Part shown: positions 3,839 through 17,697 of the stretch, piece by piece | Position numbering within the stretch: position 1 is the stretch's first letter | Layout of the letters: each line of letters starts with the position of its first letter | NCBI RefSeq assembly: GCF_943912325.1 | Contig: NZ_CALTTX010000006.1 | Span: 11,737-75,736, forward strand | DNA: 64,000 bases | Reading direction: 5' to 3' | Origin: an uncultured Microbacterium sp. | GTDB taxonomy: Bacteria; Actinomycetota; Actinomycetes; Actinomycetales; Microbacteriaceae | Translations under genes and position numbers: made by a program | The notes under the pieces: model-generated | What the model was told of the DNA's origin: nothing | Database searches by the model: none | What the model saw: only the letters and a program-made list of their open reading frames with translations

Positions 3839-3893
3839 ATCTCGAGGATGCCGCGTTCTCGCGCCGCGGGCGCGCGGCTCGCCGTCTCGCGCC

Positions 3894-4676
3894 TCAGCGT
3901 CGCGTGGGGACGGCGCGCCATCCGGCGTCGTCGCGCGTCGCTTCGCCCTCGAGTTCGAGCAGGCCGAGCCGCTGTTCGACCGACGCGCGCGTCATGCCGG
4001 CGCGCCGCGCGATCTCCTCGACCGAGCGTGCCGCACGCGTGCTCAGGGCGTCGTGAACGCGCGAGGCGTCGTCGGTGCGCTCGGCGAGGCCCGGCGACGA
4101 TGCCGTAGCACCGGACGACTTCCGCACCGGTCCCGCGTCTGACGACTCCCCACCCACGAGTTCCGCGACGTCGTCGGGCGAGGTGATGCAGATCGCAGCT
4201 CCCTCGCGCAGCAATCGGTGGCACCCGAGCGATGCCGCCGACGTCACCGGTCCGGGCACCGCTCCCAGCGCCCGTCCGAGCGTCGCGGCGTGCGCCGCGG
4301 TGTTGAGCGACCCGCTGCGCGAGCCCGCCTCGACGACGACCGTCCCCGCGCTACTTGCGGCGATGAGCCGGTTTCGCGCCAAGAATCGCCATTTCGTCGG
4401 TGCCGATCCGGGCGGGACCTCAGAGTAGACCGCGCCGCTCGCGGCGATCCGCTCGATCATCGCCGCGTGTCCCGCGGGGTACGACCGGTCGGCGCCACCG
4501 GCCAAGAAGGCCACGGTCGGAGCGCCCGTGCCGAGGCTCGCGCGGTGTGCAGCTCCATCGATCCCATAAGCCGCACCCGACACCACGGTGAGACCGCGAC
4601 GCCCGGCACCCGCAGCGAGGTCTGCCGCAACATACTCGCCGTACGCGGTCGCCGCGCGCGCTCCCACGATCGCGAC
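3894..4676 (-). pseudogene. dprA: DprA (DNA processing protein A/Smf), C-terminal fragment. The gene is interrupted by an inserted element.
   Basis: The translation ..ALVAIVGARAATAYGEYVAADLAAGAGRRGLTVVSGAAYGIDGAAHRASL.. is the DprA Rossmann-fold core plus its C-terminal winged helix. The N-terminal ~150 aa are absent here and are found 12.5 kb away, at 17260..17697. Confidence 0.8.
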
Positions 4677-4690
4677 AAGCGCGCCCTTTT
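4651..4690. repeat. Left junction (attL-like) of the integrative element. The core tcgcgac lies at 4670-4676.
   Basis: A 7-bp identity with the right junction (17260-17266), with imperfectly matching flanks (cgctcc-cacga vs cgctccgcgaacac). Host dprA sequence resumes immediately to the left. Confidence 0.5.
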
Positions 4691-4850
4691 GCGTCTGATG
4701 CAGGTTCCTTCGGGGTTCCAGGTGTCGTTGATCGTACAGGGAGCCTCGTTGGTGCCATCTCCTGACTGGCGACGACTTGCGCTCGGTCCGTTGTTTCGCG
4801 TTAGATGCGTATTGTCTGCGTTTGATGGGAGTAAACGGGTGGTTTCAGGG

Positions 4851-5954
4851 ATGACGGCGCATGGTGTTGCGGGGCTGTATCTGGCCTCGGGCGTGTCGTT
4901 GTTGCGTGCCGAGGAGTCCGTGTTCGAGGCGATGGTGACGGGTTGGCGGGCACAGCAGATGGGCGGGCGCGGTCTGCGCGAGGACTACGTGACCGGGACG
5001 GTGCGCGCGGTCCGGCAGTTCCATACGCACGCGGGCACGTGGCCGTGGTTGTGGTCGGCGGGCCTGTTCGATGAGTGGATGATGGATCTGGTGTCGGTGC
5101 GGCAGTTGGCGCCGTCGACGATCCGCGGCTATCAGTTGGCGGTGCGGCAGTTCTGCGACTACCTCACCTCGGAGCACTACGGGTGGGTGGCAGAGTGCGA
5201 GCTGCGGTTCGGAACGCACCCGGTGCAGGTCTGCCACGACTGGAACACGACCCGGCATCTGCAGGACTACGAGGGCCGGCCGGGGCGGCGACCGTTGACG
5301 CGAGACGAGTTGCAGGCGCTGTTCGACCGCGCCGACGCGGAGGTCGAGCGGTGCCTGGAGAGTGGCCGCAAGGGCGCGTTGCCAGCGTATCGGGACGCGG
5401 TGCTGCTGCGAGTGGCGTATGCGTGGGGGTTGCGGGCGAACGAGGCGGTTCATCTGGATGTGACCGACTTCTACCGCAACGCGCACGCCCCGGAGTTCGG
5501 CGAGTTCGGGATGCTTCACGTCCGCCACGGAAAGTCGTCGCGGGGCGGCCCACCCAAGCGGCGATCAGTGGTGACGCTGCGGGACTGGGCGGTGGAGGCG
5601 GTGCAGGACTATCTGGAGAACGTCTGGCCGCTGATGCGGCCGGACGGTGAGCGGGCGCTGTGGTTCTCGGAGCGCGGCACCCGGCTGCGGACGAGGGAGC
5701 TGTCGGACCGGTTCGCCGCCTACCGGGACGACCTCGGGTTCGACCGGGTGCTGTCTCCGCACGCGCTGCGGCACAGCTACGTGACGCATCTGATCGAGGA
5801 GGGCGTGGATCCGGTGTTCGTGCAGCGGCAGGTCGGGCATCAGCACCAGTCCACGACGTCGATCTACACCGGGGTCAGCGGCGACTTCGCGAACAAGATG
5901 ATGCGGGATGCGTTGGAGCGGCTGCGGCCGCAGGAGGAAGGAGCGGGCCGATGA
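4851..5954 (+). CDS. Tyrosine-type site-specific integrase of the inserted element
   Basis: The start is MTAHGVAGLYL... It has a core-binding N-terminal domain. The catalytic box HALRHSYVTHLIEEGVDPVFVQRQVGHQHQSTTSIYTGV contains R-H-x-x-R...H...Y. It is the first gene inside the element, next to the left junction. Confidence 0.85.
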   Translation: MTAHGVAGLYLASGVSLLRAEESVFEAMVTGWRAQQMGGRGLREDYVTGTVRAVRQFHTHAGTWPWLWSAGLFDEWMMDLVSVRQLAPSTIRGYQLAVRQFCDYLTSEHYGWVAECELRFGTHPVQVCHDWNTTRHLQDYEGRPGRRPLTRDELQALFDRADAEVERCLESGRKGALPAYRDAVLLRVAYAWGLRANEAVHLDVTDFYRNAHAPEFGEFGMLHVRHGKSSRGGPPKRRSVVTLRDWAVEAVQDYLENVWPLMRPDGERALWFSERGTRLRTRELSDRFAAYRDDLGFDRVLSPHALRHSYVTHLIEEGVDPVFVQRQVGHQHQSTTSIYTGVSGDFANKMMRDALERLRPQEEGAGR

Positions 5955-6301
5955 AGGTGATCGGGTACGAGTGGCGGTTGCGGGAGGTGATGGCGGCGTC
6001 GGGGATCTTCGCGACGTCGAAGCTGGTGCCGTTGTTGCGTGAGCGCGGGATCGAGTTGTCGGCGAGCCAGATCTACCGGTTAGCGACGGAGAAGCCGGAA
6101 CGGCTGAACATGCACGTGCTGGTCGCGCTGATGGACATCTTCGAGTGCAGCGCGGACGACCTGGTCCGCAAGGTCGACCTGGGCGCCTCGGCGGCGGCGA
6201 CCGGCACCGACGGCGAGGACCGGTCCGCGGGCGGCGCGGCGACGTTGCGGGAGAAGGGCCTGCGTCCGCCGCGGGCGCGCGTGATCCCGACGGATGGGTG
6301 A
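5951..6301 (+). CDS. Small helix-turn-helix DNA-binding protein (XRE/excisionase-like accessory protein)
   Basis: Its ATG overlaps the integrase stop (ATGA), indicating coupling. The 116-aa product contains an HTH (LSASQIYRLATEKPERLNMHVLVALMDIFECSADDL). It lies between the two recombinase genes. Confidence 0.65.
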   Translation: MKVIGYEWRLREVMAASGIFATSKLVPLLRERGIELSASQIYRLATEKPERLNMHVLVALMDIFECSADDLVRKVDLGASAAATGTDGEDRSAGGAATLREKGLRPPRARVIPTDG

Positions 6302-8843
6302 CGAGGTCCGCGACGTCCTGGTCGCGGTCATCGCCGAGGTCGAGACGACCGTCACGCGAGATGTCATCCGTCAGATCGTGAACCGCACGATCGTCCGGGA
6401 ACCCGCAGAGCGGCGTCTGCTCGCACAGCTGACCAAGGATCCGGGGATGCTGGTGTCGGGGTCGACGCGGATCCCGCGATTGCTGGATCGCATCCTGCTC
6501 GATCTCGCCGACGCCGGCGGCAGCACGGTTCGCCCGCCGGGCTGCGCACGCTGCGGCCGGGTGGAGTTGCTGGTCTGCCGGGACGGTGAGGATCGGATCT
6601 GCGCGGCCTGCGGGCGGGCGCGCCTGGACGTGCTGATCGACTGCGTCGAATGCGAGCGGAGCGGGCAGCTGCGGCACGCGCAAGTGGGCGACCGGGCCTA
6701 CTGCCGCTCCTGCTGGCGGGCGCTGCAGGACGTCGCCGACGAGCGCCTGGACAGGTTCGTCGCCGAGCGGATTCCCGGCGGGACTCTCTACATGATGCTG
6801 ACCGCGACCGAGGGACTGAAGGCGGATCGCACGTTGCGACTCGCGCTGGAATGCGAGCTGTTCGGCGCCGACTGGATCGCCGACCCGCCGGCATCGTCGG
6901 TCCTGTTTGCCACGTTCTACGAGCGGCTGCGTGAGCTCGGCGCCCAGCTGCCAGCCCTGACCTGCGGGCACTGCGGCCGGGTCCGGAAGCTCCCGGACCG
7001 ACTCGAGGGGCGGATCTGCTGCGGCGCCTGCTACAAAGCCGCGCACCGGGCGGTCTGCGACGGATGCGGCAACACGGCCCATTTGGAGCTACGCCGCCCC
7101 AACGGTGACAGGCTCTGCCAGGCCTGCACGAACCAGCTGCCCGAATCCTCCGCGGAGTGCATCGGCTGCGGGAACCACCGGCTGATCGCGGTGCGCACTT
7201 CGGACGGGCCGATGTGTTCCGGCTGCCGGACCGCGCCCGGCACCGATGTCTGCACGGTGTGCGGCACCTCGGGTCCGTGTCGGTTCCCCGGCACCGAGAA
7301 GGCGATCTGCCTGACCTGCTACGCCGCCGCCCGGGTGGACATCTGTCACCGCTGCGGGCGAGAGCGGGAATGCCGGTTCGCGGGCACACCCAAGGCGATC
7401 TGCACGCCTTGCGCGCTCCCCCGCAAACCGTGCTCGGTCTGCGCCCGGGTGGTGCTCCCGATCCGGCACACCCCGGACGGGGAGCCGCTCTGCTGGAACT
7501 GCGCCCCGCACATCGTGGAGGCATGCATCGGCTGCGGCCGCGAAGCGCGGGTCAACGCACGCACTGACCAGGGGCCGCTCTGCCAGCGTTGCGCCCGGAC
7601 CAGCCCGCTGATGTTCCGCGATTGCCGTCGCTGCGGGACTCACGGACGGCTGCACCACCGCCGCTGGTGTGATCGCTGCTACGCCGACGACAAGATCCGC
7701 GAACTGCTCCCGGACGATGTCGTGGCAGCCGATCCGATGCTCGCGACACTGCGCGAGCGGTTCCTGGCCGCGGACGAGCGACGCACCCTGGACGCCTTCC
7801 GCCGCAACACGACGGTCGCGATCCTGCGGGAGGCCGTCTCCGGCACGGAGCCGCTGAGCCACGCGCTGCTGGACCGGCTGGGTACGCCTGGGTCGACTGC
7901 CCCCGTCCGGGCGCTGCTGGCCGAGTATGGCTTGCTCCCTGCGCGGGACGAGCAGTTGGTCCGGTTCGAGACCTGGTGCCAGGACCGGTCGGCGCAGATC
8001 CTCGACCCGGACCATCGCCGCCTGTTCGACCGATTCGTCCGCTGGCGTCATCTTCGGCAGCTGCGCGAGCAGGACCGCCAGACCGGGCGGCGGCAATCAG
8101 ACGGGCGACGGCAGGAACTGACCCAGGTCCTCGGCCTGCTGGGCTGGCTCACCGCACGCTCGGAATCGCTGACGATGCTCGACCAGGCGCGGCTGGATCT
8201 CTGGCTGCTCGAGGGCCCAAGGCTTCGCCGACGCGTCGCGGCGTTCCTGGAGTGGGCCGCCCGCGACGGCACCTGCCCCCGCCTGCGCGTCCCTTCCCTG
8301 ACCAGCACCCCCAACACGCCGACCGGCGCCAGCGTCGACGAACGCTGGGAACTGCTGGGCAGGGTGCTCAGCGCGCACGACGACGACCCCCGCACCCGAC
8401 TCGCGGGCGCACTGCTGCTGCTGTTCGGGATCCCGGTGGCCCGGCTGCATCTGCTGCGCGTGACCGACATCACCTCCACCGACACAGTCACGATCCGTCT
8501 CGGCGCGGACCCGCTGGAGCTCCCCGACGCGATCGGGCAGCTCGCGATCACCGCCCGTGAGCACCGCGACGCGCCACGCCTGCTCACCGACGCCGGAGAA
8601 TCCGATTGGCTGTTCCCGGGCCAGCATCACGGCGCTCCGCTCTCCCGCGACGCGCTCACCGACCGGCTGGCCAGGTTCGGCATCCGTGCCCGCCATGCCC
8701 GCGCCGGCGCGCTGGCCTCCCTCGCCCAGGAGCTGCCCGCCCCGGTGATCGCACGACTGACCGGCCTTCACGTGACCGCGGCCACCCGCTGGGCCGAAGC
8801 CGTCGTAGCCAGCAACGCCCGCTACAGCGCGCTCACACGCTGA
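6294..8843 (+). CDS. Large (849 aa) zinc-ribbon-repeat protein with a C-terminal tyrosine-recombinase-like domain
   Basis: Residues ~85-470 carry about ten tandem CxxCG...C(x2)C zinc-ribbon repeats (CARCGRV..CAACGRA; CVECERS..CRSCW; CGHCGRV..CGACY; CDGCGNT..CQACT; CIGCGNH..CSGCR; CTVCGTS..CLTCY; CHRCGRE..CTPCA; CSVCARV..CWNCA; CIGCGRE..CQRCA; CRRCGTH..CDRCY). The C-terminal ~330 aa resemble an integrase SAM-like domain plus a catalytic domain (ARLHLLRVTDI ... LFPGQHHGAPLS ... RHARAG ... GLHVTAATRW ... ARYSAL). Confidence 0.7.
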   Translation: MGDEVRDVLVAVIAEVETTVTRDVIRQIVNRTIVREPAERRLLAQLTKDPGMLVSGSTRIPRLLDRILLDLADAGGSTVRPPGCARCGRVELLVCRDGEDRICAACGRARLDVLIDCVECERSGQLRHAQVGDRAYCRSCWRALQDVADERLDRFVAERIPGGTLYMMLTATEGLKADRTLRLALECELFGADWIADPPASSVLFATFYERLRELGAQLPALTCGHCGRVRKLPDRLEGRICCGACYKAAHRAVCDGCGNTAHLELRRPNGDRLCQACTNQLPESSAECIGCGNHRLIAVRTSDGPMCSGCRTAPGTDVCTVCGTSGPCRFPGTEKAICLTCYAAARVDICHRCGRERECRFAGTPKAICTPCALPRKPCSVCARVVLPIRHTPDGEPLCWNCAPHIVEACIGCGREARVNARTDQGPLCQRCARTSPLMFRDCRRCGTHGRLHHRRWCDRCYADDKIRELLPDDVVAADPMLATLRERFLAADERRTLDAFRRNTTVAILREAVSGTEPLSHALLDRLGTPGSTAPVRALLAEYGLLPARDEQLVRFETWCQDRSAQILDPDHRRLFDRFVRWRHLRQLREQDRQTGRRQSDGRRQELTQVLGLLGWLTARSESLTMLDQARLDLWLLEGPRLRRRVAAFLEWAARDGTCPRLRVPSLTSTPNTPTGASVDERWELLGRVLSAHDDDPRTRLAGALLLLFGIPVARLHLLRVTDITSTDTVTIRLGADPLELPDAIGQLAITAREHRDAPRLLTDAGESDWLFPGQHHGAPLSRDALTDRLARFGIRARHARAGALASLAQELPAPVIARLTGLHVTAATRWAEAVVASNARYSALTR

Positions 8844-8869
8844 TCGGCGGCCACGGCAGACTCGACAGC

Positions 8870-9256
8870 ATGAACGATGAGCTTCCCCCGCAGATCCGGA
8901 CGATCGCCGACCGCATCGCGGACGGCTGGGCGGACACCATCGACATCGGCCCGGGATGGTTCGACCTTCTCGCCCGGCTGGACCAACAGCTCGCCGAGAT
9001 CTCGCCCGGCTACGTCATCGAGCAATGCAAGACGAAGTTCGGCACCCTCCGCTACTACGCGCGCCCCGAAGACGCCGACCACACCGACGCGGCCCGGTTC
9101 TCGGACATCATCCGGGATGCCGAGGACGAAAGCGCGACCGTCTGCGAGGACTGCGGCCAGCCCGCCCAGTAGGTCACGAGCCGCGGGTGGGTCTGGACCC
9201 TCTGCACCGCGCACGCACAGCAGCGGACGAACCCCTCCGAGATGTCGGCTGGCTGA
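8870..9256 (+). pseudogene. Hypothetical small protein interrupted by an in-frame TAG at 9170-9172. The translation continues into a second half zinc-knuckle.
   Basis: The ATG at 8870 follows the large recombinase stop. The 100-aa ORF ends ..VCEDCGQPAQ*. The same frame stays open for 28 more codons (VTSRGWVWTLCTAHAQQRTNPSEMSAG*), which would complete a C-x2-C...C-x2-H metal-binding pair. This suggests a nonsense mutation or read-through. Confidence 0.4.
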
Positions 9257-9262
9257 TCCATC

Positions 9263-10012
9263 ATGGATGACATGACCGATCTGGACGCGCTCGTCCCGCC
9301 CCACGAACCCGCCGAGGACACGCTCGCCTTCGCCGGCAAGGCCGCGCTCTCGCTGGTTCCCGTCGTCGGCCCCCTCGCCGCCGAGACGCTCGCGCACGCG
9401 CTGGAGACGAGGCAGGCCGAGCGACAGCACGAGTTCAACGTCGCGATCGCGCAGGCACTCACCGACGCGATCTCGCGGCTGGATGAGGCTGCGACGATCG
9501 AGGACATCGTCGGGTCGGACGAGTTCATCGCCGCGGTCACCCGGGCGCAACGCGCCGCGGCCGAGACCGCCAGCCACCACAAGCGACAGCGTCTGGCCGC
9601 CGCGGTCGCCAACGGCGGGTCCTGGGCGCCGTTCTCGGCCAGTGAGCGTGAGCAGTTCACCCGGCTGGTCGACGAGTTCGACGAGCTGCACGTCTGGCTG
9701 CTGCACTACTTCGCCGACCCCACCGGCTGGCTGCAGTCCCGAGACCTCTACGCCCAGCACGCGAACCTCATGATGGGCGGCATCGACGGGCCGCTGGGCA
9801 CCGCTCTCGGCGTCCCGCAGAATGTCTGGCGCGGACCCGTCGGTCAGGCCGCCTCGGACCTAGACCGGACAGGGCTTGCCTCGATTCCGCTGACCACGAT
9901 GATGACCCCGCAGGGCGTGTTCGCACCGCGCACGTCCGAGAAGGGACGACGATTCCTCGCGTTCATCAATGAACCCGACTCTCTGTCCGCGAATCCGCCG
10001 GCGTCCCTATGA
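9263..10012 (+). CDS. Hypothetical protein (249 aa), no recognisable domain
   Basis: An ORF with good GC3 bias. Its stop overlaps the start of the downstream small ORF (ATGA). It is element cargo of unknown function. Confidence 0.55.
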   Translation: MDDMTDLDALVPPHEPAEDTLAFAGKAALSLVPVVGPLAAETLAHALETRQAERQHEFNVAIAQALTDAISRLDEAATIEDIVGSDEFIAAVTRAQRAAAETASHHKRQRLAAAVANGGSWAPFSASEREQFTRLVDEFDELHVWLLHYFADPTGWLQSRDLYAQHANLMMGGIDGPLGTALGVPQNVWRGPVGQAASDLDRTGLASIPLTTMMTPQGVFAPRTSEKGRRFLAFINEPDSLSANPPASL

Positions 10013-10179
10013 TTCCGATCGACCCCGTCGACATCGACGGCTTGCCACCCGGCCGGAACTGCCCGGCTTGCGGTGAGCCGCTCGAGCCTGGTCACATCGA
10101 CGACTCGCTGCAGTTGGTCTGGCTCTGCCCCTCCCACGGCGTTGTCGACCGCACCATCGACCCGCTCCGAGGCCTGTGA
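10009..10179 (+). CDS. Small zinc-ribbon protein (56 aa)
   Basis: The product is MIPIDPVDIDGLPPGRNCPACGEPLEPGHIDDSLQLVWLCPSHGVVDRTIDPLRGL, with C-x2-C ...(18)... C-x2-H. Its start is coupled to the upstream ORF stop. It is too short for the ORF track. Confidence 0.4.
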   Translation: MIPIDPVDIDGLPPGRNCPACGEPLEPGHIDDSLQLVWLCPSHGVVDRTIDPLRGL

Positions 10180-10198
10180 CAGTCACACGCAAGGATGT

Positions 10199-10870: not shown

Positions 10871-10939
10871 GTGACCCTCTTGACTTTATCAAGTATCTGC
10901 TTGAAAGTATCAAGCACTATTCTCACATCAAGGAGAGTC

Positions 10940-11326: not shown

Positions 11327-11655
11327 CGGACCAGGAGGACCTCATCGAGCGGGTACGTGAAGCGCTAAGTGACCGCAGCCCTCGTGAAGTGTCCATGTTC
11401 GGCGGCGTGTCCTTCATGATCGAGGGACGCATGGTCGTCGCCGCGCGCCGAGAGGGAGAACTCCTGCTGCGCATCGACCCCATGGCCGCGAAGGACCTTC
11501 TCGCCCGCCCCGGTGCCCACCCCGCGCTGATGGGAGCAGACCGCCCCATGGGCGACGGCTGGATCAGCATTGAACAGGCTGCCCTCCAGGGGGCCGGGCT
11601 CGACGCCTGGCTCGAACCCGCACTGTCCTTCCACACGGCGCAAGGCGCCCAATAG
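11323..11655 (+). CDS. TfoX/Sxy N-terminal domain protein
   Basis: The sequence ..REVSMFGGVSFMIEGRMVVAARREGELLLRIDP..PGAHPALMGADRPMGDGWISI matches the TfoX_N fold (MFGG..G.MF....d.L.lK). It is translationally coupled (ATGA) to the NTF2-like gene. Confidence 0.7.
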   Translation: MTDQEDLIERVREALSDRSPREVSMFGGVSFMIEGRMVVAARREGELLLRIDPMAAKDLLARPGAHPALMGADRPMGDGWISIEQAALQGAGLDAWLEPALSFHTAQGAQ

Positions 11656-11676
11656 ACCACTCTCCGTACCCGCATT

Positions 11677-11712
11677 CATCAGTGGCCGGCCGCAAACGTG
11701 GCCGGCCACTGA
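11677..11712 (+). terminator. Perfect GC-rich hairpin (cagtggccggcc / loop gcaaacgt / ggccggccactg) followed by ctgtttc
   Basis: A 12-bp perfect inverted repeat sits directly after the TfoX_N gene stop, followed by a short T-containing tract. It could alternatively belong to the IS481 left end. Confidence 0.45.
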
Positions 11713-12722
11713 TCTGTTTCAGGAGGCACTATGAGCCATCGCAATGCCGCGCTGACCCCACGCCATCGTCTGCGAGTCGCTCGACTCGTCATCGAGGACG
11801 GGTGGCCGATCAGCGAAGTCGCCGCCCGCTTCCAGGTGTCGTGGCCCACCGTGAAGCGGTGGGTCGATCGCTACGTTGCTGGTGAGCCGATGCAGGATCG
11901 GTCGTCGCGCCCGAGATCCTCGCCAAACAAGACGAGCACGAAGATAACGAAGCGGTGCGTGAGTCTACGAATGCGCCTGAGGGAAGGGCCCGTCCAACTC
12001 GCCTCCAGGCTCGGCATCGCCCCGTCCACGGTCCACCGCATCCTCAAAGGTGCCCGCATGAACCGGCTCTCCTACGTCGACCGTGCCACCGGCGAGACGA
12101 TCCGCCGGTACGAACACGACCATCCTGGCTCTCTTGTGCACGTCGACGTGAAGAAGCTCGGGAACATCCCCGACGGCGGTGGCTAGCGCTACGTCGGCCG
12201 GCTCCAAGGAGAACGAAACAGAGCTGCCACTCCTGGGAGGTCGAAGAACAAGTGGCGCAATCCGAAGCTCGGGTACGCGTTCGTGCACACGGTCATTGAC
12301 GATTATTCCCGCATCGCCTACACCGAGGTTCACGACGACGAGACCGCTGCCACTGCCATCGGGGTCCTGCACCGAGCATTCGAGTGGTTCGCCGACCGCG
12401 GCGTCACGATCGAGCGGGTCCTGTCCGACAATGGTGGCGCCTACCGATCCAACCTGTGGCGAGACACGTGCGAGGCGCTATCGATCGCTCCAAAGCGAAC
12501 ACGGCCGTACCGACCGCAGACCAACGGCAAAGTGGAGCGCTTCCACCGGACTATGGCCGACGGGTGGGCGTACGCACGGTGCTACACCAGCGAGCACGAA
12601 CGCCGCGACGCTCTCACCAACTGGCTCCACCACTACAACCAGCACAGGCCCCACACCGCCTGCGACAATCGACCACCCTTCTCACGATTGATCAACGTCT
12701 CCGATCAGTACATCTAGTTGCC
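11700..12722 (+). mobile_element. IS481-family insertion sequence (about 1.0 kb). Its transposase is inactivated.
   Basis: The IS481 transposase N-terminal HTH (11731..12186) and DDE domain (12283..12717) are in the same frame. They are separated only by a TAG at 12184-12186 in the motif GGG*RYVGR (expected GGGWR). The terminal sequences at ~11716-11735 and the reverse complement of ~12706-12722 are similar (aggcactatgag vs aggcaactagatg). Confidence 0.7.
11731..12717 (+). pseudogene. IS481-family DDE transposase with an in-frame amber stop
   Basis: Typical motifs include HVDVKKLGNIPDGGG, then after the TAG KWRNPKLGYAFVHTVIDDYSRIAYTE ... DNGGAYRS ... YRPQTNGKVERFHRT. Confidence 0.8.
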
Positions 12723-15047
12723 TCACGACGCCGAGAATGTCTTGACTAGCGACTCGAGGTCTTCGTGAGGGAGCGCGCGTAGGGCCTGGCCGCTGCCGAG
12801 CTCCCACATCGAGAAGCCGTCCTGGCCGTCGGGCGTGCCGTCGGTCTTCCACGTTCCCTCGGTCACGAACTTCACCTGGACCGTCGTGGAGACATCCTTG
12901 TGCGGCTGGATCGACAGCAGCTTGCGTCGGGCGTCGCCCTCGACGAGATGGTCGCCCTTCGTGTCGACACAGATGACCGTGTCGCCGGACCACACGAGGA
13001 AGTCCGGGAAGAACCAGATCGTCTGCCCGAGCGACACGAGCTGTATCCGGTAGCCGGTCTGCGAGCGGTTCCTCGCCCACGTGAGGCCCGTGTCGTCGAG
13101 AGCGCGGGCGAAGCGCCGCTCGAAGTCGTTGAGGCCGTCGTAGCCCTCGTGAAGCGCGTTCTTGAACGTTTCCATGGATCCGCGGCGTACGAGCGTGCTG
13201 CCGATCTCGTATGGCTTGGGCTTGAGCTGCTTCAGCACCGCGTGGCGGAGGTACTCGTCGACGGCCTCGGCAGCGTTGTCGGCGAGGCTCGCGTACGCCC
13301 GACTGCCGACGCCGACCTTCGCGTCGAACTTCTGGCCATCGGTATCCATGACTGTCAGCGCGAGCCGATAGCGCCGGGAGACCTCGCGCTGGAAAACCCA
13401 TCGAGCGTTGACACGGTTGGACTGCTCAAAGTCCTCCCAGTCGGAGTCGGTCGCGTCGCCCGCGCCGATCGCCTGGACGACGGTGCGTCGCCGACCTTGG
13501 CCGCGGGTGTTCACCGCGTCCTGGGTGTAGTCGAGAACCTTGTCGAGCACCTTCTGCACCGGCTTCACTGTCGCCTCGTTGTCGACACCAGTACGGGGTA
13601 TGTGGCGCGATTCCTTCGGCTCGAGATTCACCGGCGTCTCCGTGCCGGGCGGGGAGGTAAGGATCCGCACCTCAGGGGCATCGCCACCGAGGCCCCGCCG
13701 CACGTCTTCCACGATGTCTTTGAACACGTCGTTGCGGTCGACTCGCACGTAAAAGTGCGCAGTGTTGAGCCTGTCCGCCTCATAGTGCATCGCCCCTGGC
13801 TGGCGTAGCACGCGCCCGACCACCTGAGTGATCTGGACCGTCGACTCCATCGTCTTGTCGACGTACGCGAAATACACGGCCGGGTCGTCCCAGCCTTCCT
13901 GGAGCGTCTGATTGAAGATGATGTGCCGGTAGTCGCCTGCCACGAAGTCGTCGTAGTCGCTCTCGCCGCCGCTGAAGAGCACGAAGTCCGCCGGTAGCGG
14001 GAAGTCCTTGTCGGTCTTGAGATTCGCGTACACAGCGACCTCGTCGGCCGGGATCCCGCACTGCTCGGTGAGATACCGCCAGATCTGGATCGGCGGGGCC
14101 TGTCGCTGGTCGAAGAGTTGCTTCGGGTCGTCCGTGCGGCTCGCGTCGTCCGCGAGGATGTTCGTGTTGCAGACGTAGATCGCCTTCGGCGCAAAGCGGA
14201 GGCCCTCCGCCTGCGCGGCCGCCTCGGCTTCGCGCATGTCGGTGAGCATCTCGGAGACGGTCTCCTCCATCGGCGCGTTGAGCCCGTCGAGCGAAATCAT
14301 CCCTTTGACGAGGCCAGAGGCGACGACCGTCGAGGATTTCACCGACGTGATGAGCGCTTCATCTGTGTAGCCGGCTTGCAACCGCAGAGGCTGGATGACC
14401 TCCGTATCAAATTGCGCCGGGAACCGAAGCGTCGCGCTCGCGAGCAGGAACACACCGGGCTGCTGCTCGAGGAGGAGGTGCGTCTGCTGATCGGAGAGGT
14501 TCTGCGCTTCGTCGTAGACCACGACAAGCGGCCGGCGCTGGCCGTCAGCGGTCTCGCGAACCTTGAGGGCCTCCCACCGTGTGGTCTCGATGCCGTCGAT
14601 GTCGTTCGAGAAGATCTTCAGGTTGCTCTTCTCGCGATCCTTCTGGTTGAACGTGCCGACCGTGGCGAAGTAGAGCAGAGCCTCCTTCGCATCGGCGACG
14701 TCGGCCGGGTCGTACTCACTGAGCAGGCGCACCGTGATGCCCGGGAGGAGGTGACTGTACTTGCCGCCGTTCTCGAGGTTCGCGAAGCTCTGCTGGACGA
14801 CGACCTTGCCCTTGGACAGCCACAGGATTACGGGCGGGATCTCCGACATCGCCACGATCTCGCTGACGGCCTGCGCCAGGATTGCGGTCTTCCCGGATCC
14901 CGTGATCGAGCTCAACGCCTGGTAGAACGGCACCTCGCGCTTGCTGTCGCGGCGTCCCATGACGACAGGATCGGCGTCGTATTCGAAGTACCGGTCGGCC
15001 ATCTGCGAGGCCGCGTCCTGCTGGAACTGGAAGAGCTCGAGCGCCAT
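12723..15047 (-). CDS. res: Type III restriction enzyme Res subunit (SF2 helicase-like ATPase plus endonuclease)
   Basis: A Walker A motif (GSGKTA) and a DEAQN box are present. It has typical Type III Res length and organisation. It lies immediately downstream of mod, with the mod stop and res start 4 bp apart. Confidence 0.85.
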   Translation of the reverse strand: MALELFQFQQDAASQMADRYFEYDADPVVMGRRDSKREVPFYQALSSITGSGKTAILAQAVSEIVAMSEIPPVILWLSKGKVVVQQSFANLENGGKYSHLLPGITVRLLSEYDPADVADAKEALLYFATVGTFNQKDREKSNLKIFSNDIDGIETTRWEALKVRETADGQRRPLVVVYDEAQNLSDQQTHLLLEQQPGVFLLASATLRFPAQFDTEVIQPLRLQAGYTDEALITSVKSSTVVASGLVKGMISLDGLNAPMEETVSEMLTDMREAEAAAQAEGLRFAPKAIYVCNTNILADDASRTDDPKQLFDQRQAPPIQIWRYLTEQCGIPADEVAVYANLKTDKDFPLPADFVLFSGGESDYDDFVAGDYRHIIFNQTLQEGWDDPAVYFAYVDKTMESTVQITQVVGRVLRQPGAMHYEADRLNTAHFYVRVDRNDVFKDIVEDVRRGLGGDAPEVRILTSPPGTETPVNLEPKESRHIPRTGVDNEATVKPVQKVLDKVLDYTQDAVNTRGQGRRRTVVQAIGAGDATDSDWEDFEQSNRVNARWVFQREVSRRYRLALTVMDTDGQKFDAKVGVGSRAYASLADNAAEAVDEYLRHAVLKQLKPKPYEIGSTLVRRGSMETFKNALHEGYDGLNDFERRFARALDDTGLTWARNRSQTGYRIQLVSLGQTIWFFPDFLVWSGDTVICVDTKGDHLVEGDARRKLLSIQPHKDVSTTVQVKFVTEGTWKTDGTPDGQDGFSMWELGSGQALRALPHEDLESLVKTFSAS

Positions 15048-15049
15048 GA

Positions 15050-16993
15050 TCAGCCCTCCTCGGTGAACGATTCGGTGCGGACATCCAGCCCGAAGTCGGA
15101 CAGGATCCGGTCGGGGATCTGGTACCACGTCACGTCATCGGTGACGAGAAGATTGCGACGGCTGTACACGTGGTAGTGGTCCGCCAACCCGGCCGCATCG
15201 GCTTCCTCGGTGATCGTCTCGTACACATTCTCGGTGAGGTCGGGGCTGGAGTTCGGTCCCGACCAGACGAGGAAGATGCCCTCGTTCGCAGCGTTCTTCG
15301 CGACCAAGTACGCGTACGGCTCACTGTGACGCTCGACCGGAATGAGCACAGCCGCGCGACGGCTGCCGGTGCTCGAGTGCGAGGCGATGACAGTGTCGAC
15401 CATCTCGTCGCGCTCCATGAGCAGCAACGTCTTGGCGTCGACCTTCTTCTCAAGCAGCTTGAAAGTGAAGCCGCCTCCAAGCGGCTTTCCCTGCCCGTTC
15501 GCCCAATCACCGTTGACCACGCGAGCAAGACGATCGGCTGTGAGCGTCTTGGCGTAGGAGTCACCCCGTTCTGGGCGTCCCTGCTCGATGAGAATGAACC
15601 GCCGGTCGCTACCCGACATCTCGTTGAGCGCGAGGACAGCGTGGCCCGTCGTCCCCGACCCACCGAACGGGTCGAGGACAGCGCCACCATCCGGGGCCCA
15701 GAGCTGGATGATCTTCATCATGAGCTTGAGCGGCTTGACTGTCGTGAACCCGTGCCCCTTGCCGACGATCGCAGTGAGCTCGGCCGCGCCGTCGCTACTC
15801 CTGCCAGACTCCTCGAAGTCCCAGGACGTCGAGCCGAGTTCGTCGGGGAGATCCATCTCCTCATCGGCCCAATAGGTGATCGGAACCTTCCCCTTCCTGA
15901 TCCTCTCAAGGTATGTCTTCGTCCGAGGACGCCCCTGCCCGTCGCGGCCAAACCAGATGAAGGGCCACGCCGGCTCCGCCAACCGCGCCTCGGCCCGCTT
16001 GGCGACCTCGGGGCCGTAGCCGTCGACAAGCAGAAGTGCCTTGGCTTTGCCGTCGCCGATGGCCTGCTCGTGGTACAGGGAGCCCCACTGCTCGAGCCAC
16101 GCCTGGATGTTCCGCTTTGGGTGCCGCCACGCGCCCTCACCAGCGGGGTAATGCAGCTCACCTGTGAAAGGCGACTGGATGGCGTAGTCGCCGCTGTGGG
16201 CCCACGTTCGCGCCGTGAGGTTGCCCTCGCGCCACAATCCGATGGGGTCGGAGTCCGGGTTGCCGTAGCGTCGGTTGTCGGCGTCAGTACGGTCCATCGA
16301 TGCAGTCTTGGCGCGGGCGAGGTCGCGTGCGTAGACGAGCACATACTCCGTCGTAGCCGTCACGCCGCCCTTGTCCGAGCGTGGGGCGGCCGTCTTCTGC
16401 CAGTTGATGATTGCGAGCCGGTTCTCCTCGCCGAACAACTCGTCGAGCATCTGGCCGAGATGGAACAGCTCGCGGCTGTCGATGCAGATCGCGAGCACAC
16501 CAGACGGCTTCAGCATCGCTCGCATCATCTGCAGGCGCGGATACATGAACTTCATCCACTTGGTGTGCTTCGCGGGGTCGTCGCTGCCCACGAACTCGCC
16601 CATGTCGGGGTCGTTGGGGTCTGTGTCCCACTTGTCGTTGTAGCGGAAGTCGTCGCCCGTGTTGTACGGCGGATCGGTGAGGATCAGGTCGACGTGGCCC
16701 CGCTCGCGGTACAGGGAGGCCAGCGCCTGCAGGTTGTCGCCCTCAATCAGGAGGTTCCGCGCGCGGCCGTGCTCGTCGCCCGCGCTGTACTTCTGGATCG
16801 TCCGCTGGTTGCGCGGGCGCACTCGGCGGCCGAGCTGCCGGGCAAGGACCTTGCCGGGGAACGAGAGGTTCACGCCAGCTCCGGTCTTCTCGCGGATCAT
16901 CTCGATCAGTTGCTCGACGGGCAGATCTTCCAGAGCAAGCGAATCGTCCACGATGTGTCCTTTGGTTGGGGGCGGCGCAGGTCGTTCTGGCAT
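15050..16993 (-). CDS. mod: Type III restriction-modification methyltransferase Mod (N6-adenine)
   Basis: The DPPY catalytic motif (LILTDPPYNTGDDF) and the AdoMet-binding FGGSGTT motif (VLDPFGGSGTTGHAV) are present. It is the first gene of the mod-res operon. Confidence 0.85.
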   Translation of the reverse strand: MPERPAPPPTKGHIVDDSLALEDLPVEQLIEMIREKTGAGVNLSFPGKVLARQLGRRVRPRNQRTIQKYSAGDEHGRARNLLIEGDNLQALASLYRERGHVDLILTDPPYNTGDDFRYNDKWDTDPNDPDMGEFVGSDDPAKHTKWMKFMYPRLQMMRAMLKPSGVLAICIDSRELFHLGQMLDELFGEENRLAIINWQKTAAPRSDKGGVTATTEYVLVYARDLARAKTASMDRTDADNRRYGNPDSDPIGLWREGNLTARTWAHSGDYAIQSPFTGELHYPAGEGAWRHPKRNIQAWLEQWGSLYHEQAIGDGKAKALLLVDGYGPEVAKRAEARLAEPAWPFIWFGRDGQGRPRTKTYLERIRKGKVPITYWADEEMDLPDELGSTSWDFEESGRSSDGAAELTAIVGKGHGFTTVKPLKLMMKIIQLWAPDGGAVLDPFGGSGTTGHAVLALNEMSGSDRRFILIEQGRPERGDSYAKTLTADRLARVVNGDWANGQGKPLGGGFTFKLLEKKVDAKTLLLMERDEMVDTVIASHSSTGSRRAAVLIPVERHSEPYAYLVAKNAANEGIFLVWSGPNSSPDLTENVYETITEEADAAGLADHYHVYSRRNLLVTDDVTWYQIPDRILSDFGLDVRTESFTEEG

Positions 16994-17240
16994 GTTCCGC
17001 TCATGCCAACCACACGTCTACATCCTACGAGCGGGGGCAGACGTTGGTCGGATCCGAAGGGCGCCGGCAAGGCAGAACACACCTGCCAGCACGCAGCGAA
17101 GTCGGACTACTTCAAGCCCTCACGCGCCGAACCGATGACTGCGCAACCATACTCAACAGGCGCGGGCACGCCAGTGATCGAGATCAGCACCCGCATCGAC
17201 ACTCCCGCCGGCTAAAGCGCGAGGTTCAACTCCGCGACAT

Positions 17241-17275
17241 GCCAATCGCTCCGCGAACACTCGCGACCCCGCCCG
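17241..17275. repeat. Right junction (attR-like) of the integrative element. The core tcgcgac lies at 17260-17266.
   Basis: The same 7-bp core is found at 4670-4676, with imperfectly repeated flanks. The host dprA N-terminal coding sequence begins immediately to the right. Confidence 0.5.
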
Positions 17276-17697
17276 TCAGCACCGAGGGCCGAGTCAGCCG
17301 AAGCGCCCCGCCGCCACAGGCAGAACGGCGCATGGTTCTCGAGATCGTCGAGCCCATCGGGCCAGGCCACATCCCCGGGGATGATGACACGGAGTCCCGC
17401 CCGGTCCGTCAGTTCGAGCGCTTCGTTGAGCGCGCGCCGCGTCGCGCGCGGGCGCCACCGCCGAAGCCCTTCGCCGACCTCCCTGTGGTTCATGAGAGCC
17501 GGCGCCGGCTCTCGCGCGGTGATCGCCTCGAGCGCGGCAACCGCTCCGAGCTCGGCCACGAGCGCTCCCGCGACCCCGTCGCCGGGTTCGGTCACGATCG
17601 CCCAGGCGATACGCGCACAGCGCTCGGCGTCCACATGATCGGCCCGCACGGCACCCAGGAGCATCGGCTCGCACGGCGGAACCTCGCGGGCGCTCAC
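17260..17697 (-). pseudogene. dprA: DprA N-terminal fragment (SAM-like N-domain and start of Rossmann domain). It is separated from its C-terminal part by the 12.6-kb insertion, and also carries an internal frameshift.
   Basis: The translation ..VIIPGDVAWPDGLDDLENHAPFCLWRRG, then (in the +1 frame) ALRLTRPSVLTGGVA, joins perfectly to AIVGARAATAYGE at 4676 when the intervening element is removed. Its start overlaps the comM stop. Confidence 0.8.

What the first reader, a model, noticed from the sequence alone, without database searches (positions are those of the whole stretch)
3894..17697. A ~12.6-kb integrative element splits the competence gene dprA
Both halves of the dprA reading frame are clearly recognisable, but they lie 12.5 kb apart. 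The C-terminal part (..ALVAIVGARAATAYGEYVAAD.., 3894-4676) sits next to xerC. The N-terminal part (..GLDDLENHAPFCLWRRG..ALRLTRPSVLTGGVA, 17260-17697) sits next to comM.

If 4677-17259 is deleted in silico, the two parts join as one continuous reading frame (..RPSVLTGGVAIVGARAATAYGE..). Both junctions carry the same 7-bp core, tcgcgac (4670-4676 and 17260-17266), with imperfectly repeated flanks. A tyrosine integrase gene lies immediately inside the left junction.

This is the signature of site-specific integration into a protein-coding gene without reconstitution of the target. Mobile elements that inactivate competence or DNA-processing genes (comM, comYC, radC) are thought to protect themselves from removal by transformation. 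Here comM is intact and dprA is the casualty.
Basis: partly seen in the sequence, partly recalled or inferred. Interest (0 to 1): 0.85.

Follow-up and report, generated by a model that had tools for sequence, protein, structure and literature searches.

The report
Two-recombinase transposon splits the dprA gene

Summary
dprA (minus strand) is split by a 12,571-bp insertion at window 4677-17247. Near-identical contigs (99.4-99.8%) carry the empty site with an intact 410-aa DprA. Deleting 4677-17247 restores a 410-codon ORF that differs from it by two residues.

The 7-bp "core" TCGCGAC (really at 17261-17267) lies 14 nt inside the N-terminal flank and is not an att core. The peptide "ALRLTRPSVLTGGVA" is an out-of-frame reading. 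The true junctions share at most 1 bp, with no target duplication and no terminal inverted repeats.

The insert begins with a conserved trio: a short tyrosine recombinase (367 aa), a small HTH protein (116 aa) and an 849-aa protein with a zinc-ribbon array and a C-terminal tyrosine-recombinase fold. This fits the actinobacterial Tn554-related transposons described in 2012.

The same 5.5-kb core, 99.8% identical, sits at the same dprA codon in Microbacterium ginsengisoli, where the flanks are only 66-71% identical. About ten host backgrounds show the same site and orientation. Relatives insert into umuC-like, yhcG-like, comM and other conserved genes. Cargo here is a type III R-M system plus a nested IS481-family element.

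Verdict: real, recent and site-specific; a member of a known class. The dprA targeting appears undescribed.

The parts
3894..4676 (-). dprA 3' fragment. It encodes residues 151-410 (VAIVGARAAT... to the stop codon): Rossmann-fold domain from strand beta1 plus the winged helix.
   Evidence: Pfam DNA_processg_A profile positions 47-210 of 212 (E 9e-54) and DprA_WH. 99.6% identical to residues 151-410 of the intact allele P0001.
4677..17247 (+). The whole inserted element, 12,571 bp, a Tn554-like tyrosine-recombinase transposon. Ends: 5'-AAGCGCGCCCTTTTGCGTCTGATGCAGG ... CTCCGCGACATGCCAATC-3'.
   Evidence: Absent from the 99.4-99.8% identical contigs L001-L004. Both termini recur at other insertions. 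Its deletion restores a 410-codon dprA.
4689..4702 (+). Imperfect palindrome TTGCGTCTGATGCA, 12 nt from the left terminus. Candidate recombinase-binding site.
   Evidence: Found once in the element. A motif of this type lies at the same distance from the left end in most of the 86 related loci, including distant clades. Its function is inferred.
4851..5954 (+). Short tyrosine recombinase, 367 aa, with the full catalytic set R195, H304-x-x-R307, H330 and Y339.
   Evidence: Pfam Phage_integrase E 4e-23. The catalytic residues are invariant in alignment A2. Homologs are 50-99% identical across Actinomycetota.
5951..6301 (+). Small Cro/C1-type HTH protein, 116 aa. Its start codon overlaps the stop codon of the short recombinase gene.
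   Evidence: Pfam HTH_26 E 2.8e-10. A match to it follows the short recombinase gene in 79 of the 80 genome loci; the exception (L056) is a contig that ends inside that gene.
6294..8843 (+). Long tyrosine recombinase, 849 aa. The N-terminal ~520 aa hold a helical region and an array of CxxC zinc ribbons. The C-terminal ~330 aa form a complete core-binding plus catalytic recombinase fold.
9263..10179 (+). Two conserved accessory ORFs of unknown function: 249 aa (9263-10012) and a 56-aa zinc-finger-like ORF (10009-10179).
   Evidence: GC3-supported ORFs. The 249-aa ORF is 92-100% conserved in L011, L016 and L017 and 81% in L038. No significant family hits.
10204..12712 (+). Nested IS481-family element, 2509 bp. 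It carries an HxlR-type regulator gene (10199-10870, minus strand), a 151-aa ORF (10871-11326) and a transposase split into two ORFs (11731-12186 and 12283-12717). A 6-bp target duplication TCTAGT lies at 10198-10203 and 12713-12718.
   Evidence: Absent from the otherwise 99.8% identical L011 copy, which has a single TCTAGT. Terminal inverted repeats are TGTACTGACCGGGGACATT and TGTACTGATCGGAGACGTT. Pfam HxlR, HTH_23/HTH_32, rve/rve_3 and LZ_Tnp_IS481.
12723..16993 (-). Cargo: a type III restriction-modification system. mod is 15050-16993 (647 aa); res is 12723-15128 (801 aa).
   Evidence: PADLOC MTase_III E 7e-71 and REase_III E 4e-9. Pfam N6_N4_Mtase and ResIII. GC is 64%, against 70% for the core and flanks. 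L011 keeps only the last 129 nt of res.
17210..17247 (+). Right terminal 38 nt, ending ...GACATGCCAATC.
   Evidence: 100% identical in L011, where it ends exactly at that genome's dprA junction. Related right ends ending ...CCAAT(A)C occur in L014, L015, L060, L022, L025 and L038; L018 ends ...GCCAGTC.
17248..17697 (-). dprA 5' fragment, residues 1-150, with a GTG start at 17695-17697. The open frame runs on into the element to a stop codon at 17212-17214.
   Evidence: 98.7% identical to residues 1-150 of P0001. The frame reads ...GRGRECSRS then DWHVAELNLAL*.

Best explanation
Window 4677-17247 is a Tn554-like transposon of the actinobacterial class that encodes a short and an 'abnormally long' tyrosine recombinase plus a small third protein.

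Shown:
- It inserted recently and precisely between codons 150 and 151 of dprA, directly upstream of the conserved (V/I)AIVG(A/S)RAAT motif.
- It sits in one fixed orientation and splits the gene.
- It left no target duplication, has no terminal inverted repeats, and shares no core with the target.
- Nearly identical copies sit at the same codon in unrelated host backgrounds.

Inferred, by analogy with Tn554 and from tyrosine-recombinase chemistry:
- The two recombinases, possibly with the HTH protein as regulator or directionality factor, excise the element as a circle.
- They rejoin its ends (...GCCAATC | AAGCGCG...) to a target they recognise mainly through the conserved DNA on the C-terminal side of the site (CCSACGAWNSNRAN|).
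- Little or no homology is needed at the crossover.
- The zinc-ribbon array of the long recombinase is a plausible DNA-recognition module.

The segment between the conserved 5.5-kb core and the right end is exchangeable cargo. Here it is a type III R-M system, later hit by an IS481-family element. dprA is inactivated as a full-length gene. Whether that loss is selected or incidental is open.
For: Empty site and precise restoration:
- L001-L004 are 99.4-99.8% identical to both flanks and carry an intact 410-aa DprA in the same gene order.
- Deleting 4677-17247 restores 410 codons with two substitutions.

Mobility and site specificity:
- The core 4677-10205 is 99.77% identical to M. ginsengisoli DSM 18659 (L011), while dprA, xerC and comM there are 66-71% identical.
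- L011 has the same termini, and its in-silico excision also restores dprA (...AAEPS|IAIVGARAAT).
- The same codon and orientation occur in 13 further loci, representing about 10 distinct flank sequences. These include clades whose short recombinase is only 69-71% identical.

Class features:
- The trio is conserved: the short recombinase gene is followed by a match to the small HTH protein in 79 of the 80 genome loci and to the long protein in 75; the remainder are cut or degraded.
- The long protein has a tyrosine-recombinase fold with invariant R803 and Y844.
- There is no repeat at the junctions and no terminal inverted repeat.
- Several contigs begin at or within a few nt of an element's left end (L041, L055, L068, L069, L074, L075, L089), and L014 also stops exactly at the right end, as expected for a repeated or polymorphic unit.
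- The description matches Van Houdt et al. 2012 (PMC3414803). Tn554-family properties are as summarised in PMC3788773 and the TnCentral preprint.

Cargo varies between copies: type III R-M here, a multicopper oxidase in L011, and a giant surface protein in L005 and L006.
Against: - Nothing here shows that this copy is currently active. No circular junction was found in public metagenome contigs.
- Sequence homology to Tn554 TnpA, TnpB and TnpC themselves was not tested. It rests on a 'data not shown' statement in PMC3414803.
- I could not tie my proteins to that paper's accession list. pRHL3 was not among the listed hits and two other accessions are not held.
- The gene order here (short recombinase, HTH, long recombinase) differs from Tn554 (tnpA, tnpB, tnpC).
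- The first catalytic arginine of the long recombinase is only moderately conserved, so it could be a non-catalytic partner.
- The nested IS and the replaced cargo show that the copy has been remodelled.
Confidence: 0.85

Rival explanations
1. One reading: a classical integrative island whose single integrase recombines attP with attB through an identical 7-bp core (tcgcgac), leaving that core as a direct repeat at both junctions.
For: A tyrosine recombinase gene lies next to one junction. The 7-mer does occur near both junctions.
Against: - The empty-site allele places the crossover 14 nt away from the high-coordinate copy.
- That copy is host sequence and reads TCGAGAC in the empty alleles.
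- Joining at the 7-mer frameshifts the gene.
- The 7-mer is common in this DNA: 46 copies, about 63 expected.
- In L011, L022, L025 and L038 the junctions likewise share no core.
- The element encodes two recombinases, not one.
Confidence: 0.03
2. The choice of dprA is an adaptation. The element family targets genes of DNA uptake and recombination so that the host cannot delete it by transformation-mediated 'chromosomal curing', or to disable host DNA-processing functions that threaten it.
For: - Relatives of the same family sit in comM at the Walker A motif (L050), in umuC-like Y-family polymerase genes, in PDDEXK and GmrSD nuclease genes, and in relaxase and recombinase genes.
- Two transformation genes among roughly ten target classes looks more than random.
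- The concept is established for comM, comYC, comFA, comEC, ssbB and radC (PMC4774983; PMC11472951; PMC12637031).
Against: - Elements that are 99.9% identical to one another occupy both dprA and a yhcG-like gene at a similar 14-nt DNA motif. Recognition is therefore of a sequence, not a function.
- Other targets have no link to transformation: the 3' end of an OmpR-type regulator gene and DUF932.
- Several targets are themselves genes typical of mobile elements.
- Natural transformation is documented in very few Actinobacteria (own knowledge), and no phenotype can be read from sequence.
- Any highly conserved coding motif makes a good portable landing site, as radC does for Tn554.
Confidence: 0.3
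3. Only the conserved 5.5-kb left module is the mobile unit. The R-M region and the 'right end' are unrelated DNA that accumulated beside it.
For: Similarity to most relatives stops after about 10.2 kb. The cargo has a lower GC content.
Against: - The empty site shows the whole 12,571 bp was inserted as one block between adjacent codons.
- The last 38 nt are identical in L011 and abut dprA there too.
- Related right-end motifs (most ending ...CCAAT(A)C) abut the target in L060, L022, L025, L038 and L018.
Confidence: 0.05
4. The arrangement is ancestral, an assembly artefact, or two paralogous DprA remnants, rather than an insertion.
For: None beyond the bare fact of two fragments.
Against: - The two fragments are the two halves of one 410-aa protein, with 408 of 410 residues matching.
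- Four independent contigs carry the uninterrupted gene.
- Independent assemblies of named strains show the same element at the same codon.
Confidence: 0.01

Closest known systems
Actinobacterial Tn554-related transposons (Van Houdt et al. 2012, Mob DNA 3:6, PMC3414803)
   Same: - A ~350-aa tyrosine recombinase lies next to an 'abnormally long' one (611-828 aa) that has an N-terminal extension of more than 400 aa with no recognisable domain and a C-terminal catalytic motif.
- A co-oriented small third gene is present.
- Hosts include Arthrobacter, Micrococcus, Mycobacterium, Rhodococcus and Streptomyces, on plasmids and chromosomes, often in several identical copies.
- All of this matches.
   Different: - That paper defined the class from protein families only. 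The parts I read give no element ends, target sites or cargo.
- Here the ends, the lack of target duplication, the dprA codon and other target classes are defined.
- I could not verify by sequence that my proteins fall in the published Famint families.
Tn554 family of Firmicutes (Tn554, Tn558, Tn559, Tn5406, Tn6188)
   Same: - A three-gene transposition module sits at one end, with two tyrosine recombinases.
- There are no terminal inverted repeats and no target duplication.
- Insertion is at the same relative position of a conserved DNA-repair or competence-associated gene, across hosts whose target proteins are only about 45-60% identical.
- A conserved motif lies on one side of the site.
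- Cargo is variable.
   Different: - The target is dprA (also umuC-like, yhcG-like, comM and others), not radC.
- Hosts are high-GC Actinomycetota.
- The gene order is short recombinase, HTH, long recombinase.
- The long recombinase is 849 aa with a zinc-ribbon array.
- Protein homology to TnpA, TnpB and TnpC was not tested here.
- TnCentral describes the Tn554 family as restricted to Firmicutes.
Mobile elements that interrupt competence genes: AbaR/Tn7-like islands in comM, prophages in comYC, comFA and ssbB, transposons in comEC (PMC4774983, PMC11472951, PMC12637031)
   Same: A mobile element occupies a fixed site inside a gene of the transformation or recombination pathway and inactivates it. 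Cargo often includes defence systems.
   Different: - The recombination machinery differs: two tyrosine recombinases rather than Tn7 TnsABCD or a phage integrase.
- dprA is not among the targets listed in those papers. My searches of the held library found no paper describing a mobile-element insertion in dprA.
Multi-recombinase modules: RIT elements (recombinases in trio) and the gamma-mobile-trio GmtX/Y/Z
   Same: Adjacent, co-oriented tyrosine recombinase genes form a mobile module. The short recombinase gave weak NCBIfam hits to GmtY and GmtZ.
   Different: RIT elements have three recombinases and no HTH or zinc-ribbon protein. The Gmt hits (E 3e-6 and 0.004, far below the cut-offs) cover only the generic catalytic C-terminus.
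Actinomycete integrative and conjugative elements (pSAM2, SLP1)
   Same: Integrative elements of Actinobacteria that carry a tyrosine integrase.
   Different: Those integrate into tRNA genes through an identical att core and carry rep, tra and xis genes (PMC2440964). None of these features is present here.

Membership tests
Tn554 family (sensu stricto) | Transposition module of two tyrosine recombinases plus a small third protein, co-oriented at one end of the element | tested here: met
   Short recombinase 4851-5954, HTH 5951-6301, long recombinase 6294-8843. The small gene lies in the middle, not last as in tnpABC.
Tn554 family (sensu stricto) | No terminal inverted repeats | tested here: met
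   No inverted repeat was found within either terminal region, and none of the 25 longest inverted-repeat pairs reported for 3800-18000 joins the two termini. The termini are AAGCGCGCC... and ...ATGCCAATC.
Tn554 family (sensu stricto) | No target-site duplication | tested here: met
   Empty site GAGCG|TCGCGA compared with the occupied junctions shows at most 1 bp shared. The same holds in L011.
Tn554 family (sensu stricto) | Insertion at one conserved position and in one orientation of a conserved gene, across divergent hosts | tested here: met
   14 insertions (about 10 host backgrounds) lie at the (V/I/T)(A/T)I(V/T)G codon of dprA, all with the short recombinase gene next to the dprA 3' part.
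Tn554 family (sensu stricto) | Target is radC; hosts are Firmicutes | tested here: not met
   The target is dprA and the hosts are Actinomycetota.
Tn554 family (sensu stricto) | Proteins homologous to Tn554 TnpA, TnpB and TnpC | not tested
   No Tn554 sequence was available in the tools. This rests on 'data not shown' in PMC3414803.
Tn554 family (sensu stricto) | Circular excised form | tested here: inconclusive
   A pattern search for the end-to-end joint in metagenome contigs gave only chance matches. Assemblies rarely capture such circles.
Actinobacterial Tn554-related transposons (Van Houdt 2012) | A ~350-aa recombinase adjacent to a long recombinase with an N-terminal extension of more than 400 aa lacking known domains and a C-terminal catalytic motif | tested here: met
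   367 aa and 849 aa. The N-terminal ~520 aa have no family hit. The C-terminal fold is a tyrosine recombinase with invariant R803 and Y844 and nearly invariant W833.
Actinobacterial Tn554-related transposons (Van Houdt 2012) | Co-oriented small third gene; actinobacterial plasmids and chromosomes; multiple copies | tested here: met
   The short recombinase gene is followed, on the same strand, by matches to the small HTH protein in 79 of the 80 genome loci and to the long protein in 75. The long protein has matches in 248 plasmid records. Several contigs begin at an element's left end, and L014 spans exactly one element.
Actinobacterial Tn554-related transposons (Van Houdt 2012) | Sequence membership in the published protein families (Famint27/33/53/62 and others) | not tested
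   Two listed accessions are not held. pRHL3 was not among the listed hits of a Rhodococcus-type query.
Classical integrase-mediated integrative element (lambda or ICE type) | Identical core sequence shared by attP and attB and left as a direct repeat at both junctions | tested here: not met
IS481 family (the nested element 10204-12712) | TGT...ACA terminal inverted repeats, a 6-bp duplication of an NCTAGN target, and a DDE (rve) transposase with an N-terminal HTH | tested here: met
   Inverted repeats and a TCTAGT duplication; the empty site is in L011. Pfam rve/rve_3, HTH and LZ_Tnp_IS481. The NCTAGN preference is from my own knowledge of IS481.
Type III restriction-modification system (cargo) | mod (N6/N4 methyltransferase) followed by res (helicase-nuclease) in one operon | tested here: met
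   PADLOC MTase_III E 7e-71 and REase_III E 4e-9. Pfam N6_N4_Mtase and ResIII. The res match is weak and partial.

The most novel reading that the evidence does not exclude
This family of two-recombinase transposons has repeatedly retargeted itself to the most conserved coding motifs of genes that process incoming or damaged DNA: dprA, comM, umuC-like polymerases, PDDEXK and GmrSD nucleases, relaxases and recombinases. The zinc-ribbon array of the long recombinase would act as an evolvable target-recognition module. Knocking out dprA or comM would be selected because it blocks deletion of the element by transformation. That would make dprA a previously unrecognised battleground in the conflict between mobile elements and transformation, in a phylum where competence is barely studied.
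Probability: 0.2. Interest if true: 0.75.

Novelty: new member of a known kind. Interest (0 to 1): 0.5.

Why it matters
Three things come out of this.

1. It supplies what the 2012 in-silico description of actinobacterial Tn554-like elements lacked in the parts I read: exact ends, the absence of target duplication, a defined and recurrent target (one codon of dprA), several other target classes, and clear evidence of recent transfer between species with exchangeable cargo (R-M system, copper oxidase, surface protein).

2. In the papers I could search, dprA is not listed among the competence and recombination genes known to be hit by mobile elements. A related element also sits in comM.

3. It offers a tractable system. 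Culture-collection strains such as M. ginsengisoli DSM 18659, M. sediminicola JCM 15577 and Haematomicrobium sanguinis DSM 21259 carry such elements. They could be used to study how two tyrosine recombinases insert DNA with almost no homology at the crossover, and what the zinc-ribbon array does.

For genome annotation, a split dprA in Microbacteriaceae or Micrococcaceae should prompt a search for this element.

Tried and rejected
1. Tested and rejected: frameshifted, wrong boundary, and the shared 7-mer is coincidental.
2. My first DprA reconstruction. I assumed a frameshift in the N-terminal part. That was wrong. The 95% identity to P0001 reflected this error; the correct join gives 408 of 410 residues.
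3. Direct and inverted repeat searches across the element and at its ends found nothing meaningful except the inverted repeats of the nested IS.
4. Pfam, NCBIfam, PHROGs, PADLOC and a single-sequence PDB search of the 849-aa protein gave nothing. Only a 40-sequence profile and the structure model revealed the recombinase domain.
6. A search for the circular joint in metagenome contigs returned 50 loci. The six I inspected, including every match with a short gap, were unrelated chance matches.
7. A scan of viral contigs gave one 52% and one 29% relative. The element is not phage-associated.
8. Attempts to link to the accession list of PMC3414803 or to obtain Tn554 sequences failed. NC_008704 and NC_008147 are not held. 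pRHL3 is held but was not among the listed hits. The two original Tn554 papers are not in the library.
9. AICE, RIT and Gmt-trio membership were considered and rejected on gene content.

Full report
**What is at the coordinates**

On the minus strand the gene order is rpsB, an M23 peptidase gene (on the opposite strand), xerC, a dprA 3' fragment, about 12.6 kb of other DNA, a dprA 5' fragment, comM, yraN (UPF0102), DUF2469, rnhB and lepB. The 3' fragment (3894-4676) matches Pfam DNA_processg_A from profile position 47 to 210, plus the DprA winged helix. The 5' fragment (17248-17697) has no Pfam hit on its own. comM is full length at 504 aa.

**The empty site and the true junctions**

A search with a reconstructed DprA found a 410-aa protein (P0001). 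It is encoded on four public contigs (L001-L004) in exactly the same gene order, with dprA uninterrupted.

L001 aligns to the window at 99.84% over 10.4 kb on the comM side, ending at window 17247. It aligns at 99.44% over 4.7 kb on the xerC side, starting at window 4676. The sequences, in dprA sense, are:

- Empty site: ...GGGGTCTCGAGTGTTCGCGGAGCG|TCGCGATCGTGGGAGCG...
- Window, N-terminal side: ...GTTCGCGGAGCG|ATTGGCATGTCGCGG...
- Window, C-terminal side: ...GGGCGCGCTTG|TCGCGATCGTGGG...

The insert is therefore 4677-17247 (12,571 bp). One base (G/C) could belong to either side. Comparison with other insertions assigns it as written.

Deleting 4677-17247 gives 1233 nt = 410 codons, with 408 of 410 residues identical to P0001. 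The insertion lies exactly between codon 150 (S) and codon 151 (V of VAIVGARAAT).

- The shared 7-mer is at 17261-17267, not 17260-17266. It lies 14 nt inside the N-terminal flank. It reads TCGAGAC in the empty-site alleles. It is a common word in this DNA: 46 copies, about 63 expected.
- 'ALRLTRPSVLTGGVA' is a +1-frame translation of what really encodes ...ASADSALGADGRGRECSRS.
- Joining at the 7-mer gives 1213 nt, with the two halves in different frames.
- I initially made the same error and 'corrected' a non-existent frameshift. That is why one search reported only 95% identity to P0001.
- There is no direct repeat at the junctions and no terminal inverted repeat.

**Anatomy of the insert**

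- *Left end.* The terminus AAGCGCGCCCTT is followed by an imperfect palindrome, TTGCGTCTGATGCA, at 4689-4702.
- *Short recombinase.* 367 aa, 4851-5954, with all catalytic residues.
- *Small HTH protein.* 116 aa, Cro/C1-type, 5951-6301, overlapping the recombinase stop codon.
- *Long protein.* 849 aa, 6294-8843. It has no hit in Pfam, NCBIfam, PHROGs or PADLOC.
  - It belongs to a large family: 3329 cluster representatives at E no greater than 0.001.
  - A 40-sequence alignment shows invariant or nearly invariant CxxC pairs (about a dozen zinc ribbons) in the first ~460 residues.
  - The same alignment shows invariant R803 and Y844 and nearly invariant W833 near the C-terminus.
  - The profile's best PDB hit is XerD at E 0.0016.
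  - So the element encodes two tyrosine recombinases.
- *Accessory ORFs.* Two conserved ORFs of unknown function, 249 aa and 56 aa, follow.
- *Nested IS.* A 2509-bp IS481-family element lies at 10204-12712. It has inverted repeats and a 6-bp TCTAGT duplication. It carries an HxlR-type regulator gene, a 151-aa ORF and a split transposase. The otherwise identical L011 copy lacks it and shows the unduplicated TCTAGT.
- *Cargo.* A type III R-M operon: mod 15050-16993 and res 12723-15128, on the minus strand.
- *Right end.* ...CTCCGCGACATGCCAATC.
- *Composition.* GC is 69.6% in the core, the same as the flanks. It is 64% in the IS and the R-M part.

**Relatives elsewhere: mobility and site specificity**

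The closest homolog of the short recombinase (P0121, 92% identical) is encoded on contigs where the same trio abuts a truncated dprA (L005, L006, L008, L009) or a yhcG-like gene (L007, L010). These copies are 99.9% identical to each other and 87% identical to the window over 4677-8836.

A scan of one genome per species returned 580 relatives, of which the best 80 were kept. Across those 80, a match to the HTH protein follows the short recombinase gene in 79 and a match to the long protein in 75, all on the same strand; the exceptions are contigs that end early or carry degraded copies. The hosts span Microbacteriaceae and Micrococcaceae through Streptomyces, Mycobacterium, Rhodococcus, Acidimicrobiia and Solirubrobacterales.

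The key case is Microbacterium ginsengisoli DSM 18659 (L011):

- The element core is 99.77% identical to the window over 5.53 kb.
- Its xerC, dprA and comM are only 66-71% identical in DNA and 41-60% in protein.
- Both termini are the same. The last 38 nt are identical and end exactly at that genome's dprA.
- Removing the element restores ...AAEPS|IAIVGARAATAYGE.
- Its cargo differs: a multicopper oxidase and a small SHOCT-like protein. Only the last 129 nt of res are retained.

That is recent horizontal transfer followed by independent insertion at the homologous codon.

The same codon and orientation are seen in L005, L006, L008, L009, L011, L012, L013, L016, L017, L022, L025, L028 and L038. 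In L018, dprA fragments lie on both sides, with extra DNA at the left junction. Together these represent about ten distinct flank sequences. Named strains include M. sediminicola JCM 15577, M. nanhaiense CGMCC 4.7181, Kocuria soli M5W7-7, Haematomicrobium sanguinis DSM 21259 and Agrococcus sp. 1P02AA. They include clades whose recombinase is only 69-71% identical to the window's.

Sequence on the N-terminal side of the site varies: CSRS, AEPS, QETR, AYER, LSDR, CRRS. The C-terminal side is the conserved (V/I/T)(A/T)I(V/T)G(A/S)RAAT-coding DNA. Recognition therefore seems to rest on one side of the crossover.

Several contigs begin at or within a few nt of an element's left end, and L014 also ends exactly at the right end. 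This is typical of repeated or polymorphic units.

**Other targets in the family**

I took the open reading frame abutting each left end and confirmed examples with Pfam. The classes are:

- Y-family polymerase (IMS, umuC-like), just upstream of RSSNYELY: L019, L020, L021, L023, L026, L027, L031.
- YhcG-type PDDEXK nuclease: L007, L010, L056, L060. L014, which retains only 3 nt of flank, is consistent with this class.
- comM at the Walker A motif (AHHLMLTGPPG; Mg_chelatase profile position 23): L050, a Mycobacterium MAG.
- GmrSD-type nuclease: L051, L052, L054.
- Tyrosine recombinase genes at HxLRHT: L063, L064, L066, L071, L073, L078, L086, L088.
- TrwC relaxase N-terminus: L079, L081.
- The last codons of an OmpR-type regulator gene: L087, L090.
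- DUF932: L083.

Within the clade at least 83% identical to the window's recombinase, the dprA and yhcG sites share a DNA motif, CCSACGAWNSNRAN|, next to the crossover. Identical elements use both. The specificity is therefore for DNA sequence.

**What it is and how it probably works**

The combination of features is the signature of Tn554-type transposons:

- two tyrosine recombinases plus a small protein at one end;
- no terminal repeats and no target duplication;
- a fixed site and orientation inside a conserved gene across hosts with divergent target proteins;
- a conserved motif on one side of the site;
- variable cargo.

These properties are summarised for Tn554, Tn558, Tn559 and Tn6188 in radC (PMC3788773; TnCentral preprint). 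Van Houdt et al. [quoted passage not shown] The class has a ~350-aa recombinase, an abnormally long one (611-828 aa) with an unassignable N-terminal extension of more than 400 aa and a C-terminal catalytic motif, and often a TnpC-like third gene, on plasmids and chromosomes of the same genera. The window element fits that description.

What is shown here is the insertion, its precision, its recurrence, its transfer between species and the protein folds. What is inferred is the mechanism. That includes cooperation of the two recombinases, a circular intermediate, strand exchange with little or no homology, any role of the HTH protein as regulator or directionality factor, and any role of the zinc ribbons in DNA recognition.

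**Caveats**

- I could not obtain Tn554 protein sequences or tie my proteins to the published accession list. Membership in the Tn554 superfamily therefore rests on architecture and behaviour plus the 2012 paper's statement.
- No circular joint was found in metagenome contigs. The matches I inspected, including every short-gap one, were chance matches.
- The element is essentially absent from viral contigs.
- It is single-copy in this window.

**Why dprA**

My searches of the held library found no paper reporting a mobile-element insertion in dprA.

The presence of both dprA and comM among the family's targets is suggestive. Three things weaken it:

- the sequence-level specificity;
- the use of a yhcG-like site by identical copies;
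- the many targets unrelated to transformation.

These fit the simpler view that very conserved coding motifs are portable landing sites, with gene inactivation tolerated. I rate the adaptive reading at about 0.2-0.3.

**Verdict**

The finding is real and the insertion is recent. It is a clean example, with a documented empty site and a cross-species twin. The element belongs to a known but poorly characterised class. The target definition, and dprA as a recurrent site, appear to be new information. Interest is moderate.

Noticed in passing
window 10198-12718: A 2.5-kb IS481-family element is nested in the transposon, with inverted repeats starting TGTACTGA and a 6-bp TCTAGT duplication. Besides a split transposase it carries an HxlR-type regulator gene and a 151-aa ORF, so it appears to carry passenger genes. 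The HxlR reading frame runs to a stop codon in the flanking duplication.
   Followed up: partly
L050:9800-14000 (Mycobacterium sp. MAG, JAXLRX010000001.1): A relative of the element (short recombinase 57% identical) is inserted in comM directly before the Walker A motif (AHHLMLTGPPGVGKT). dprA lies just downstream. This is a second transformation-associated gene hit by the same transposon family.
   Followed up: partly
L019, L020, L021, L023, L026, L027, L031 (left flanks): Elements with recombinases 69-72% identical to the window's sit a few codons upstream of the RSSNYELYGDMS motif of a umuC-like Y-family polymerase gene. Copies with identical termini (L022-L027) are found in dprA, in this gene, and at one other unidentified site (L024).
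   Followed up: partly
L063, L064, L066, L071, L073, L078, L086, L088: In Acidimicrobiia, Solirubrobacterales and related genomes, distant family members are inserted right after the HxLRHT catalytic motif of another tyrosine recombinase gene. These may be nested insertions into other mobile elements.
   Followed up: no
L005:2500-7700 and L008: In one host the already interrupted dprA is broken a second time. About 4 kb of unrelated genes (DUF308, META, Abhydrolase_9; in L008 also an IS) separate its winged-helix part from its Rossmann part. This suggests further decay after the first hit.
   Followed up: no
L037, L039, L040, L042, L043, L045-L049 (left flanks): A clade in Arthrobacter and relatives is inserted nine codons into a gene that begins M-G-(Q/T)-N-K-R-Y. 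I did not identify the gene.
   Followed up: no
L011:15500-17400 (M. ginsengisoli) and L005:12537-18915: Cargo differs between nearly identical cores. L011 carries a multicopper oxidase with a small SHOCT-like membrane protein. L005 and L006 carry a gene for a surface protein of more than 2900 aa.
   Followed up: partly
L144:1-5400 (Rhodococcus sp. YL-1 plasmid pYLC1): On this plasmid the trio is annotated as tyrosine-type recombinase, helix-turn-helix regulator and hypothetical protein (848 aa). It lies about 650 bp from the end of another, oppositely oriented recombinase gene (a small hypothetical ORF lies between them).
   Followed up: no
The 'repeat' exists only in the occupied allele.
   Followed up: yes
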